Translations under genes and position numbers: made by a program | Notes under the pieces: generated by a model | Databases searched by the model: none | What the model saw: the letters and a program-made list of their open reading frames with translations, nothing else | Told to the model about the DNA's origin: nothing | Shown: positions 29,345 through 31,509 of the stretch, piece by piece | Layout of the letters: the number at the start of each line of letters is the position of its first letter | Position numbering within the stretch: the first letter of the stretch is position 1 | Assembly (NCBI GenBank): GCA_965214745.1 | Contig: OZ243978.1 | Coordinates: forward strand, 2,722,491 to 2,786,490 | Direction: 5' to 3' | Length of the DNA: 64,000 nucleotides | Origin: Dehalococcoidia bacterium | GTDB lineage: Bacteria; Chloroflexota; Dehalococcoidia; Lucifugimonadales; UBA1123

Positions 29345-30484
29345 CTAGGCTCTCTCTTCTATCGGGACGTACTCGACATCCATGGGGCCTGTGTAGAGCA
29401 GCCTGGGCCTAAGCAGAATGTTGTTGTCGAATTGCTCGATCACTTGCGCCGTCCAACCCGGCACCCGCCCCATGGCGAATATGGAGATGAAGAGGTCATC
29501 GGGAATGCCGAGCAGGTAGTATATCGCGCCGGAGAAGAAGTCTACGTTCTGGTAGATTCCTCGGCGTCGGTACGGCTCCATCACCTCGATTACAGCCTGA
29601 AGAATCTGGAACCACTCCGGTTCGCCCTTGCGCTCGCCCAGCTCTTTGGCGTCGTCTTGCAGGTGTAGCGAGCGCGGGTCTACGGCTTTGTAGACGCGAT
29701 GCCCGAAGCCCATGATGCGCCCGCCGCCGCGGATGCGCTCGCGGACGTAGTTTTCGGCGTTCTCCTCGCTGCCTATCTCCTGCGTCATCTTCATCACTTC
29801 TTCAGCCGCGCCGCCGTGCGACGGTCCCTTGAGAACGGCTATGCCGGTGGTTACGGCGCAGTGGAGATCCGCTTGGGTGGACGCGGCTACGCGCGCGCCG
29901 AACGCGGAAGCGTTGATGCCATGCTCGGCGTGCAGAACGAAGTCTTTGTCTATGAGCGCGGCGTCTTGCTCCGTAGGCTCTTCGCCGAAGAGCATATACA
30001 GGAAGTTGGCGGCGTGGTTGAGATTGGGGTTCGGCGCGAGCGGCTCGTTGCCGTCTCTGATGCGCGCGTGAGCCGCGACTATCGTAGCCGCCTGAGCGGT
30101 GAGGCGTATGCCCTTGCGAAGCGTCGCCTCGGACGAGTTGTCTTCGGTGTCCGGGTCGTATGCGGAGAGGGCGGATATCGCTGAGCGAAGCACATCCATC
30201 GGGTGGGAGTTTCGGGTTAGGCGGATGATGTCGAGTATCTCGCCGGGAAGCTCCCGCGCCGCCTTGAGGTCGGCGTCGAAGGCGTCGAGCCGCGTCTGCG
30301 TGGGAAGCTCGCCGTTCATCACGAGGTAAGCCGTCTCTTCGAAGTTGGACTTTTCGGCGAGGTCGTGGATGTCGTACCCGCGATAGAGCAGCTTGCCGAT
30401 GCCGCCGTCGATGAAACTGGACTTCGTTCTGTCGATGTACACTTCGCGAAGGCCGCGATGAAGCTGCACCTTCTGTTCCGTCAT
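29345..30484 (-). CDS. gltA: citrate synthase
   Basis: 379 aa. ...HAEHGINAS..., ...GFGHRVYK..DPR..., ...NVDFFSG... Confidence 0.93.
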   Translation of the reverse strand: MTEQKVQLHRGLREVYIDRTKSSFIDGGIGKLLYRGYDIHDLAEKSNFEETAYLVMNGELPTQTRLDAFDADLKAARELPGEILDIIRLTRNSHPMDVLRSAISALSAYDPDTEDNSSEATLRKGIRLTAQAATIVAAHARIRDGNEPLAPNPNLNHAANFLYMLFGEEPTEQDAALIDKDFVLHAEHGINASAFGARVAASTQADLHCAVTTGIAVLKGPSHGGAAEEVMKMTQEIGSEENAENYVRERIRGGGRIMGFGHRVYKAVDPRSLHLQDDAKELGERKGEPEWFQILQAVIEVMEPYRRRGIYQNVDFFSGAIYYLLGIPDDLFISIFAMGRVPGWTAQVIEQFDNNILLRPRLLYTGPMDVEYVPIEERA

Positions 30485-30757
30485 ATCGTGTCCTCCCGGG
30501 CTATGCTTAGCGCCGTCTCAACAGCCTAAGCATGCGCCAAGACAGTTTGCGGCAAGTGTCAGCGGGATGCTCGGTCGCCATCGGGAACCGCCCCCCGCGG
30601 AAGCAAGGGAATTCTAGCATTGGGCAGGTATAGTGTCAAGAAATCCGCGCCATTGCGGAGCGTGATAAAGGCGGCGCTTGCGGCGCGCCGAGCGCCGCGC
30701 CCCCACGACTGCGTTGCGTTGTTCACAATAGACAGCTCACAGTATATACTCCTGTGG

Positions 30758-30847
30758 GTTCCTCCCCCGCGCGCGGGGCGGAGGCGAGGATTCGACACGC
30801 GAACTATTGCCTGAGACAGTTCCTCCCGCGCGCGCGGGGCGGAGGCG
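30758..30847 (+). CRISPR. candidate orphan mini-CRISPR (2 repeats of 29 nt, 1 spacer of 32 nt; type I-E-like geometry)
   Basis: R1 30758-30786 GTTCCTCCCCCGCGCGCGGGGCGGAGGCG. Spacer 30787-30818 AGGATTCGACACGCGAACTATTGCCTGAGACA. R2 30819-30847 GTTCCTCCCGCGCGCGCGGGGCGGAGGCG (28/29 identical). AT-richer sequence lies upstream. No cas genes in the window. Confidence 0.35.
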
Positions 30848-30870
30848 GGCGAGCGGCGCGAGGCGTACAG

Positions 30871-31509
30871 ATGAATTCTATGCAGCCAGACGAGGCTCCG
30901 GAGGTCGTCGTCCTCAGGCTTCCGCTGTATGTGCGCGCGCTGACCCAGCTCCAACGCGAAGGAAGCTCCGTAGTCAGCTCTCAGCATCTGGGCGAGCGGC
31001 TTCAGATGACGCCCGCGCAGATACGAAAAGACCTAAGCTATTTCGGCAGGTTCGGCAAACAGGGGCGCGGATACAGCATCCAGTTCCTGCTGGACGAACT
31101 TCGCGTGATTCTGGGGCTTACGCGCGAATGGCGCGCGTGTCTCGTGGGCGTGGGCAGGCTGGGACGCGCTATCATCAACTACACGGGATTCGCGCCCGAG
31201 GGGTTCTCTATCGTAGCGGCGTTCGACAGCTCGAACGATCAGGTGGGCGCGTGCGTGGGCGATCTGCATGTGCGCTCTATGGACGCGCTGCCGACGGCGG
31301 TTCGAGAGCTGGACGTGAGCATCGGCATCGTGGCGGTGCCGGCGGCACAGGCGCAATCGGTCATCGACAAGCTGGTAGAGAACGGCGTTCACGGCATACT
31401 GAACTACGCGCCCGTCGCGCCCTACGTGCCGCGCGGCGTGGTGGTTCGGAACATAGACCCGGTGCTGTCGCTCCAGTCCATGACGTTCTACTTGGCGAAG
31501 ACGCGATAG
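30871..31509 (+). CDS. rex: redox-sensing transcriptional repressor Rex
   Basis: Start at MNSMQPDEAPEVVVLRLPLYVRAL (ATG 30871), 212 aa. Winged-helix region ...SSQHLGERLQMTPAQIRKDLSYFG..G..GRGY, then Rossmann motif CLVGVGRLG. Confidence 0.9.
   Translation: MNSMQPDEAPEVVVLRLPLYVRALTQLQREGSSVVSSQHLGERLQMTPAQIRKDLSYFGRFGKQGRGYSIQFLLDELRVILGLTREWRACLVGVGRLGRAIINYTGFAPEGFSIVAAFDSSNDQVGACVGDLHVRSMDALPTAVRELDVSIGIVAVPAAQAQSVIDKLVENGVHGILNYAPVAPYVPRGVVVRNIDPVLSLQSMTFYLAKTR

What the first reader, a model, noticed from the sequence alone, without database searches (positions are those of the whole stretch)
30758..30847. Two 29-nt palindromic repeats separated by a 32-nt unique spacer: an orphan mini-CRISPR with type I-E geometry in the gltA-rex divergent intergenic region
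Seen: GTTCCTCCC(C/G)CGCGCGCGGGGCGGAGGCG occurs twice (30758-30786 and 30819-30847, 28/29 identical). The copies flank AGGATTCGACACGCGAACTATTGCCTGAGACA, which is 32 nt and noticeably less GC-rich than its surroundings. The sequence just upstream (ttcacaatagacagctcacagtatatactcc) is AT-richer, like a leader. Established: 29-nt repeats with 32-nt spacers, an internal CCCCGC...GCGGGG stem and an 8-nt 3' handle ending in CG are typical of type I-E arrays (E. coli GAGTTCCCCGCGCCAGCGGGGATAAACCG). Inference: this may be a remnant or minimal array. Alternatively it is a pair of REP-like hairpins acting on rex expression, since it lies 24 nt upstream of the rex ATG. No cas genes occur within this 64 kb.
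Basis: partly seen in the sequence, partly recalled or inferred. Interest (0 to 1): 0.6.

Follow-up and report, generated by a model that had tools for sequence, protein, structure and literature searches.

The report
Stray CRISPR spacer in rex leader
The repeat-spacer-repeat unit in front of the redox-regulator gene rex is most likely a scar left when the bacterium's own type I-E CRISPR integrase pasted one spacer into a look-alike of its repeat; it is a natural, fixed case of a misfire known mainly from E. coli experiments, not a working CRISPR array.

Summary
A 29-nt direct repeat (28/29 identical) flanks a unique 32-nt insert at 30758-30847, between gltA and rex.

It is not a REP element, because the whole 2.93-Mb genome holds only these two copies. 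The repeat is absent from every public collection searched.

The genome has a complete type I-E cas operon 1.78 Mb away. Its array has 59 repeats of 28 nt and 58 spacers, all 33 nt, so its period is 61, the same as here.

Read on the minus strand, the duplicated 28-mer matches the native repeat at 19/28 positions in exact register. Only 1.6e-5 of genomic 28-mers do as well.

A second 28+33 unit elsewhere in the genome splits a small gene. Two conspecific assemblies have the exact empty site there.

The rex unit is present and unchanged in all four conspecific assemblies. It lies in the rex 5'UTR, directly after a genus-conserved promoter.

Best reading (about 0.8): off-target Cas1-Cas2 spacer integration, a "neo-CRISPR" scar that is probably neutral. 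No protospacer and no empty site for this locus were found.

This scan has noted the same footprint in at least 43 other genomes.

The parts
29345..30484 (-). gltA (citrate synthase, 379 aa), the divergent neighbour
   Evidence: Pfam PF00285, E 7e-125. The gltA-rex synteny is kept in the genus.
30611..30639 (-). gltA promoter, TTGACA-17-TAGAAT with an extended TG
   Evidence: 11/12 match to consensus. The block AATTCTAGCATCGG...TGTCAAGAA is conserved in relatives.
30712..30750 (+). rex promoter (-35 TTCACA at 30722-30727, -10 TATACT at 30745-30750) with an overlapping Rex-operator-like block (CGTTGCGTTGTTCACA). The predicted transcription start is about 30757.
   Evidence: 10/12 match to consensus. 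The block TGTTACGNAGTTCACAAT...TATACT is conserved in all relatives read. The operator reading is an inference from the known TGTGAA-N4-TTCACA Rex box, recalled from memory.
30758..30785 (-). Copy a of the 28-bp target-site duplication. Its minus-strand reading GCCTCCGCCCCGCGCGCGGGGGAGGAAC matches the native I-E repeat at 19/28.
30786..30818 (-). Spacer-sized insert of 33 nt. Minus-strand reading: TGTCTCAGGCAATAGTTCGCGTGTCGAATCCTC. Base 30786 (G) also matches base 30847, which is why the repeat reads as 29+32.
   Evidence: Unique in the genome. The 32-mer is 50% GC, against 63.3% for the genome and a mean of 53.6% for native spacers. It has no match in any collection searched.
30819..30846 (-). 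Copy b of the 28-bp duplication. It has one substitution relative to copy a (G at 30828, where copy a has C at 30767) and matches the native repeat at 18/28.
   Evidence: One conspecific assembly has a further substitution in this copy only.
30860..30863 (+). Likely rex Shine-Dalgarno (GAGG), downstream of the unit
   Evidence: Read from the sequence. Its predicted accessibility is the same with and without the insertion.
30871..31509 (+). rex (redox-sensing repressor, 212 aa)
   Evidence: Pfam PF06971 and PF02629. Homologues are named Rex by their sources.

Best explanation
The unit is a 'neo-CRISPR' scar. The genome's own type I-E Cas1-Cas2 integrase once inserted a single 33-bp prespacer at a non-CRISPR site. 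That site was a GC-rich palindromic hairpin at the very start of the rex 5'UTR, and its antisense strand mimics the native CRISPR repeat. The integrase makes staggered cuts at the two ends of a 28-bp 'repeat', and gap repair duplicated those 28 bp on either side of the insert. This gives 28+33+28, read by eye as 29+32+29 because one flanking base happens to match.

Shown here:
- the geometry of the unit;
- the cognate I-E system and its array in the same genome;
- the resemblance of the target to the native repeat, in exact register;
- an independent 28+33 insertion in the same genome, with an exact empty site in conspecifics;
- fixation and stasis of the rex unit in the species.

Inferred:
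- Cas1-Cas2 was the agent.
- The insert was foreign DNA.
- The unit is now a neutral passenger of the rex leader and not a working array. The reasons are that the CRISPR-like orientation is antisense to the only promoter, the handle sequences are not native, no further spacers were added, and the fold leaves the rex ribosome-binding site unaffected.
For: 1. Geometry. The native I-E array has 59 repeats of 28 nt and 58 spacers, all exactly 33 nt (period 61). The rex unit has period 61.

2. A complete I-E operon (cas3, two unassigned genes in the cse1 and cse2 positions, cas7, cas5, cas6e, cas1, I-E-type cas2) lies at G000:C1:964145-973273, next to that array.

3. Target mimicry. The minus-strand 28-mer matches the native repeat at 19/28 (copy a) or 18/28 (copy b), including CGCGGGG at positions 15-21. 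Only 92 non-array 28-mers out of 5.85 million positions on both strands reach 19 or more (1.6e-5). Offset 0 is the unique maximum among offsets of plus or minus 14 on both strands, so the duplication ends exactly where the repeat-like alignment ends. The palindromic motif of the I-E repeat is what drives Cas1-Cas2 binding to acceptor DNA in E. coli, and off-array integration occurs next to inverted repeats (PMC5389526).

4. The two copies share all nine differences from the native repeat and differ from each other at one base. That is the pattern of a duplicated local sequence, not of decayed true repeats.

5. A sister event. G000:C1:2497311-2497399 is a perfect 28+33+28 unit that splits a 109-aa four-cysteine ORF. 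Two conspecific assemblies have one copy of the 28-mer, no insert, flanks 100% identical over the roughly 190 nt (upstream) and 150 nt (downstream) nearest the site, and the intact gene. A more distant relative shows exactly a 61-nt gap.

6. Among isolated perfect direct repeats of 27 nt or more with short unique inserts, four of six have the repeat length of one of the two native arrays: 28+33, 28+31, 36+37 and 37+35 (native arrays: 28/33, and 36/35-40). With the one-mismatch rex unit (29+32) that makes five of seven.

7. The insert's GC content (50%) is like that of native spacers (mean 53.6%), not like the genome's 63.3%.

8. The repeat core occurs nowhere else: not in the genome, the genus, 185,579 species genomes or the metagenome contigs.

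9. Off-target integration that spawns new repeat-spacer-repeat units is documented for E. coli I-E (Nivala et al. 2018, as described in 10.1101/148544, PMC7054753 and PMC11788318).
Against: - No protospacer was found for the insert in viral contigs, metagenome contigs, species genomes, phage records, plasmid records, the genus or the genome itself. Its foreign origin is therefore unproven.
- There is no empty site for this locus. All four conspecific assemblies carry the unit, the nearest other Rex is only 86% identical, and the 5'UTR is not alignable between species.
- Other repeat-insert-repeat units with non-CRISPR geometry exist in this genome (34+20, 27+47, and degenerate ones at periods such as 64). 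Some other duplicating process therefore also operates.
- The other two I-E-type targets do not resemble the native repeat (13/28 and 11/28).
- The excess at period 61 by count alone is modest.
Confidence: 0.78

Rival explanations
1. A non-Cas insertion-plus-duplication process made the unit, for example polymerase template switching at a stalled hairpin or repair-associated templated insertion. On this view the match to I-E geometry is a coincidence.
For: Repeat-insert-repeat units with other geometries occur in this genome: 34+20, 27+47, and degenerate ones at periods 64 and 68. Two of the units duplicate 5'UTR hairpins (the rex leader, and the hisS leader). The 36+37 unit carries a copy of the genome's own dispersed repeat. 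Earlier notes of this scan describe lineages where similar units did not track Cas1 presence or behaved unlike spacer integration (e1-3342317 and e1-5079327).
Against: It does not explain several things. The duplication is exactly 28 bp and the insert 33 bp, the invariant native values. The target ranks in the top 1.6e-5 of the genome for identity to the native repeat, with the duplication boundaries in exact register. The other long perfect units fall on the second native array's 36-nt repeat length. The rex insert is not copied from this genome.
Confidence: 0.1
2. It is a genuine minimal CRISPR array, either a remnant of a larger one or a working orphan. Its transcript would be processed by Cas6e and loaded into Cascade to give immunity against one target.
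For: It has I-E geometry. The hairpin core is CCCCG/CGGGG, and the 3' stem strand CGCGGGG is identical to the native repeat at positions 15-21 on either strand. It is transcribed as part of the rex leader from a strong promoter. The I-E effector genes are intact.
Against: The repeat differs from the native one at 9-13 of 28 positions, including the whole 5'-handle region (native ATAGACC; GAGGAAC on the minus strand and CGGAGGC on the plus strand). The repeat-like orientation is antisense to rex, and no promoter was found to drive it. The same single spacer stands in all four conspecific assemblies, and copy b is drifting. The repeat is unknown in any other genome or metagenome searched. There is no extra DNA or cas remnant in a syntenic intergenic region whose length, minus 61 nt, falls within the range seen in relatives.
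Confidence: 0.06
3. It is a pair of cis-regulatory hairpins selected for control of rex (translation or mRNA stability), whatever their origin. This includes the first reader's 'REP-like' variant.
For: The unit occupies the rex 5'UTR from about +1. Each copy contains CCTCC...GGAGG, an anti-SD/SD-like pair. It is fixed in the species. Relatives also have a C-rich tract at the 5' end of the leader and GGGCGGAG near the ribosome-binding site.
Against: There is no dispersed family, so REP is excluded. No relative has two hairpins or the insert. The folding prediction gives a self-contained helix, and the accessibility of the SD and AUG is unchanged with or without the insertion (0.50 against 0.48, and 0.67 against 0.67). 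The fold is not more stable than shuffled sequence (z = -1.08).
Confidence: 0.05

Closest known systems
Neo-CRISPR loci from non-canonical (off-target) spacer integration by type I-E Cas1-Cas2 (Nivala, Shipman and Church 2018, Nat Microbiol 3:310). The paper is not held; it is described in 10.1101/148544, PMC7054753 and PMC11788318.
   Same: A spacer-sized insert is flanked by a duplication of exactly one repeat length, at a genomic site outside the array, made by an I-E adaptation module. The target carries a repeat-like palindrome.
   Different: This is a wild, uncultured Dehalococcoidia-type genome with no engineered Cas1-Cas2 overexpression. The unit is fixed in a species and lies in the leader of a regulator gene. 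The agent is inferred here, not observed.
Isolated or orphan CRISPR mini-arrays away from cas genes (Shmakov et al. 2020, CRISPR J 3:535). Cited in PMC8616872; the paper itself is not held.
   Same: Two repeats and one spacer far from cas genes, in a genome that has a cognate system.
   Different: The repeat here is not the native repeat and is not found anywhere else. I recall from memory that this paper proposes a de novo origin for some such arrays; I could not check the text.
Canonical type I-E CRISPR array (E. coli K-12 and T. thermophilus types)
   Same: Period of 61 nt, and a CCCCGC...GCGGGG-type palindrome ending at repeat position 21.
   Different: Only one spacer and no leader. The handle sequences are not conserved. 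It is 1.78 Mb from the cas genes.
Mini-CRISPR arrays of viruses and proviruses (Faure 2019 and Medvedeva 2019, as summarised in PMC8616872)
   Same: A single spacer between two repeats.
   Different: Those repeats are identical or nearly identical to the host's repeat and sit in viral genomes. Here the repeat is local chromosomal sequence in a conserved housekeeping intergenic region.
REP/BIME-type dispersed palindromic elements
   Same: A GC-rich intergenic hairpin.
   Different: Only two copies in 2.93 Mb, both at this one locus.

Membership tests
Neo-CRISPR (off-target Cas1-Cas2 integration scar) | The direct duplication of the target equals the native repeat length | tested here: met
   The native repeat is 28 nt. 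The duplication is 28 nt plus one ambiguous matching base.
Neo-CRISPR (off-target Cas1-Cas2 integration scar) | The insert equals the native spacer length | tested here: met
   All 58 native spacers are 33 nt. The insert is 33 nt (32 plus the ambiguous base).
Neo-CRISPR (off-target Cas1-Cas2 integration scar) | A cognate adaptation module is present in the same genome | tested here: met
   cas1 and an I-E-type cas2 lie next to cas6e, cas5, cas7 and cas3 and the array.
Neo-CRISPR (off-target Cas1-Cas2 integration scar) | The target resembles the native repeat or its palindromic motif | tested here: met
   19/28 in exact register on the minus strand, the top 1.6e-5 of genomic 28-mers.
Neo-CRISPR (off-target Cas1-Cas2 integration scar) | An empty site (single copy, no insert) in relatives | tested here: inconclusive
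   All four conspecific assemblies carry the unit, and other species' leaders are not alignable. The feature is met for the sister 28+33 unit at G000:C1:2497311.
Neo-CRISPR (off-target Cas1-Cas2 integration scar) | The insert derives from a protospacer elsewhere (mobile element, with PAM) | tested here: inconclusive
   No match in any collection searched. The two 18-mer hits in viral contigs are chance matches.
Functional type I-E CRISPR array | The repeat belongs to the system's repeat family, including the 5'-handle-encoding 3' end | tested here: not met
   9-13 of 28 positions differ. The native ATAGACC is replaced by GAGGAAC (minus strand) or CGGAGGC (plus strand).
Functional type I-E CRISPR array | A leader with a promoter upstream in the repeat's orientation | tested here: not met
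   In the repeat-like (minus) orientation, the upstream side is the start of the rex ORF, with no promoter-like site. The only promoters found are those of rex (plus strand) and gltA.
Functional type I-E CRISPR array | Spacer turnover or acquisition | tested here: not met
   The single spacer is identical in four assemblies of the species.
Functional type I-E CRISPR array | Processing by Cas6e and loading into Cascade | not testable with these tools
REP/BIME dispersed repeats | Many dispersed copies in intergenic regions | tested here: not met
   Two copies at up to 6 mismatches in 2.93 Mb, and none in the genus at the orthologous site or elsewhere beyond chance GC-rich hits.

The most novel reading that the evidence does not exclude
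The rex-leader unit is more than a scar. It is transcribed from the Rex-controlled promoter as the first 90 nt of the rex mRNA. Its two hairpins carry the same 3' stem strand as the native repeat. If they are cut by Cas6e, expression of the CRISPR machinery would trim the rex mRNA post-transcriptionally and release a 61-nt crRNA-like RNA. That would be a newborn CRISPR unit under redox control, or a link between CRISPR-Cas and redox regulation.
Probability: 0.05. Interest if true: 0.75.

Novelty: new member of a known kind. Interest (0 to 1): 0.5.

Why it matters
Off-target spacer integration has been shown in E. coli that overproduces Cas1-Cas2; natural cases are only circumstantial (10.1101/148544). 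In this complete wild genome four things are found together:
- the integrase and its array;
- a target that mimics the repeat in exact register;
- a fixed event in the leader of a housekeeping regulator;
- a second, strain-specific event with a base-perfect empty site that has knocked out a gene.

Units with the geometry of the second (I-G-like) system are present as well.

Together these make a compact natural case that CRISPR adaptation modules act as a low-level insertional mutagen, and that they are a source of new repeat-spacer-repeat units in wild populations. The case also gives concrete substrates for biochemical tests of target choice. For annotation, it warns that two-repeat 'mini-arrays' whose repeats are not native need not be remnants of arrays.

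Tried and rejected
- REP hypothesis: rejected, because the genome holds only two copies.
- Tandem duplication of a 61-nt unit: rejected, because the sequence flanking the copies is unrelated to the insert (12/32 and 5/32).
- Known RNA families: nothing near threshold in Rfam.
- Structured RNA: the fold is not better than shuffled sequence (z = -1.08).
- Protospacer searches, all negative: viral contigs (the two 18-mer hits are chance matches), metagenome contigs, species genomes, phage records, plasmids, the genus and the genome itself.
- Repeat searches, all negative: species genomes and metagenome contigs. The genus gave only chance GC-rich hits, one of them inside a coding region.
- Empty site at the rex locus: other species' leaders are too diverged, and the conspecific assemblies all carry the unit.
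- A 'spike' at period 61 by counting alone is only modest.
- Two degenerate period-61 candidates (G000:C1:1021125 and 1095132) remain ambiguous.
- Papers not held: Nivala 2018, Shmakov 2020 and Nunez 2015. They are cited second-hand only.

Full report
**1. Observation**

The finding is exactly as described. GTTCCTCCCCCGCGCGCGGGGCGGAGGCG lies at 30758-30786 and the same 29-mer, with C10 changed to G, at 30819-30847. Between them is a unique 32-nt stretch. No shuffle of the window gave any match.

The flanking genes are citrate synthase (29345-30484, minus strand) and Rex (30871-31509, plus strand). The sequence outside the copies is not duplicated: the insert matches the next 32 nt at 12/32 and the preceding 32 nt at 5/32. 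So this is a repeat-insert-repeat unit, not a tandem duplication.

**2. Not a REP family**

The window is G000:C1:2722491-2786490 of a single-contig genome of 2,927,413 bp with 63.3% GC. At up to 6 mismatches the 29-mer occurs only at this locus.
- Its 24-nt core is absent from one genome for each of 185,579 species and from the metagenome contigs.
- In the 29 other genomes of the genus, only chance GC-rich matches at 2-3 mismatches appear, one of them inside a gene.

**3. The genome has the cognate system**

A complete type I-E operon lies at G000:C1:964145-973273. It holds cas3, two genes without a Pfam hit in the cse1 and cse2 positions, cas7, cas5, cas6e, cas1 and an I-E-type cas2.

An array follows at 973360-976925. 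It has 59 copies of the 28-nt repeat GGCTCCCCCGCACACGCGGGGATAGACC and 58 spacers, every one of them 33 nt, so the period is 61.
- The first spacer base is T in 26, C in 19, G in 13 and A in none.
- Mean spacer GC is 53.6%.

The rex unit has the same 61-nt period. It reads as 29+32 only because base 30786 happens to equal base 30847. Its insert is 50% GC.

A second locus is I-G-like, with a Cas4-Cas1 fusion, a Cas3 with a C-terminal HD domain and a weak GSU0054-family hit, plus Cas10 and Csm6 genes. It has 83 repeats of 36 nt and spacers of 35-40 nt, with a mode of 37.

**4. The target mimics the native repeat, on the other strand**

Ungapped identity of every genomic 28-mer to the native repeat was computed on both strands.
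- On the plus strand the rex 28-mer scores 15-16.
- On the minus strand (GCCTCCGCCCCGCGCGCGGGGGAGGAAC) it scores 19 for copy a and 18 for copy b. CGCGGGG at positions 15-21 is identical.
- Apart from the 59 array repeats, only 92 of 5.85 million positions reach 19 or more (1.6e-5), and 398 reach 18 or more (6.8e-5).
- On a reconstructed single-copy site, offset 0 is the unique maximum among 29 offsets on each strand. The duplication therefore begins and ends where the repeat-like alignment begins and ends.

This fits E. coli I-E biochemistry. [quoted passage not shown]

The two copies share all nine differences from the native repeat and differ from each other at one base. They are therefore copies of a local sequence, not decayed true repeats.

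**5. Independent events in the same genome**

A scan for isolated perfect direct repeats with short unique inserts found, among those of 27 nt or more: 37+35, 36+37, 34+20, 28+31, 28+33 and 27+47. Four of these six have the repeat length of one of the two native arrays. With the rex unit (29+32, one mismatch) that is five of seven.

The 28+33 unit at G000:C1:2497311-2497399 splits a small ORF.
- Joining the flanks restores a 109-aa protein with two CxxC pairs, one on each side of the insertion.
- A relative, G042, has the uninterrupted orthologue (65% identity, E = 2e-40), and the DNA alignment shows exactly a 61-nt gap.
- Two assemblies of the same species (NCBI GCA_964347705.1 and ENA ERZ21848999) have the exact empty site: one copy of the 28-mer, no insert, flanks 100% identical over the roughly 190 nt (upstream) and 150 nt (downstream) nearest the site, and the intact 109-aa gene called.

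So insertions of 33 nt with a 28-bp target duplication do occur in this species, and recently.

The insert of the 36+37 unit at 568277 is a copy (34/35 at best) of a segment of a dispersed repeat of about 0.42 kb with about seven copies.

The 28+31 unit at 800785 and the 37+35 unit at 471551 are shared with conspecific assemblies. The second of these lies in the hisS leader.

**6. Context at rex**

Across the genus, the gltA-rex intergenic region keeps two blocks:
- the gltA promoter (TTGACA-17-TAGAAT, 30639-30611, minus strand);
- the rex promoter (TTCACA-17-TATACT, 30722-30750), with an upstream block that resembles a Rex operator. The operator reading is my inference.

The first repeat starts at about +1 of the rex transcript.

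The 5'UTR downstream varies greatly in length among relatives (about 40 to 140 nt), and none has the 29-mer or the insert. Without the 61 nt, the intergenic length (325 nt) falls within the relatives' range.

Three other assemblies of the same species are about 99% identical here. All carry the same unit, the same spacer and the same C/G difference, and one has an extra substitution in copy b. The unit is thus real, older than the divergence of these strains, static, and not homogenised.

**7. Consequences**

In the repeat-like orientation the unit is antisense to rex, and no promoter-like site would drive it.

As part of the rex mRNA it folds into a self-contained helix. The predicted unpaired probability of the SD and AUG is unchanged by the insertion (0.50 against 0.48, and 0.67 against 0.67).

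The handle-encoding end of the repeat is not native.

I therefore read the unit as a tolerated, probably neutral scar. Cas6e cleavage of the leader cannot be excluded, because the 3' stem strand is identical to the native one.

**8. Caveats**

- No protospacer was found anywhere.
- No empty site exists for this locus among the sequences available.
- The genome also contains repeat-insert-repeat units with other geometries.
- The other two I-E-type targets do not resemble the native repeat.
- Earlier notes of this scan report the same footprint in at least 43 genomes. One later check, on another lineage, found no correlation with the enzyme's presence. I keep a non-Cas rival at 0.1.

**9. Comparison and verdict**

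The closest known phenomenon is non-canonical spacer integration that creates neo-CRISPR loci in E. coli (Nivala et al. 2018, described in 10.1101/148544, PMC7054753 and PMC11788318).

This case meets the geometric criteria, the enzyme-presence criterion and the target-resemblance criterion. It fails those of a functional I-E array. It is a new natural member of a known kind.

Interest is moderate. The value lies in the combination of repeat mimicry in exact register, a strain-polymorphic sister event with an exact empty site, and scars with the geometry of two different CRISPR systems in one complete genome.

Noticed in passing
L035:2512-2600 (G000:C1:2497311-2497399): A perfect 28-nt duplication (CCCACTTCTTCACGCGAGAGGGAAAGCG) lies around a 33-nt AT-rich insert and splits a 109-aa four-cysteine ORF downstream of an Fe-ADH gene. 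Two conspecific assemblies (L054, L055) have the exact empty site and the intact gene.
   Followed up: yes
L037:2286-2372 (G000:C1:800785-800871): A perfect 28-nt duplication around a 31-nt insert, upstream of an Alr1449-family gene. It is shared with a conspecific assembly, where the insert is 30 nt (L056). It is a possible third I-E-type event, but its target does not resemble the native repeat (11/28).
   Followed up: partly
L048:1778-1886 (G000:C1:568277-568385): A perfect 36-nt duplication around a 37-nt insert, which is the modal geometry of the second (I-G-like) array. The insert is copied (34/35 at best) from a dispersed repeat of the same genome.
   Followed up: partly
L049:1552-1660 (G000:C1:471551-471659): A perfect 37-nt duplication around a 35-nt insert, in the hisS leader between a promoter-like TATAGT and the GGAGG ribosome-binding site. 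The duplicated part contains a hairpin. It is identical in two conspecific assemblies (L057, L058).
   Followed up: partly
L047:1974-2394 (G000:C1:498473-498893): A dispersed repeat of about 0.3-0.42 kb with about seven copies at 82-93% identity (also near 468.6, 1013.2, 1079.1, 1954.2 and 2389.4 kb, and weakly at 119.9 kb). Its nature is unknown, and the overlapping ORF has no Pfam hit.
   Followed up: no
L038:2126-2214 (G000:C1:1021125) and G000:C1:1095132: Two degenerate period-61 repeat-insert-repeat candidates (24/28 and 25/28). They are possibly older I-E-type events, and the first contains CCCGCACAC as in the native repeat. They remain ambiguous.
   Followed up: partly
L050:577-12866 and G000:C1:1245456-1251447: A second CRISPR locus, I-G-like. 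It has a Cas3 with a C-terminal HD domain, a weak GSU0054-family hit and a Cas4-Cas1 fusion, together with Cas10 and Csm6/CARF genes. Its array has 83 repeats of 36 nt.
   Followed up: partly
window 30611-30639 and 30712-30750: Two promoter blocks are conserved across the genus in the gltA-rex intergenic region. The rex -35 overlaps a Rex-box-like sequence, which suggests autoregulation.
   Followed up: partly
G018:C1:2527065-2529523 (L012): In relative G018, which has a 161-repeat I-E array with the identical repeat, gltA and rex are about 2 kb apart instead of about 0.4 kb. Something is inserted between them.
   Followed up: no
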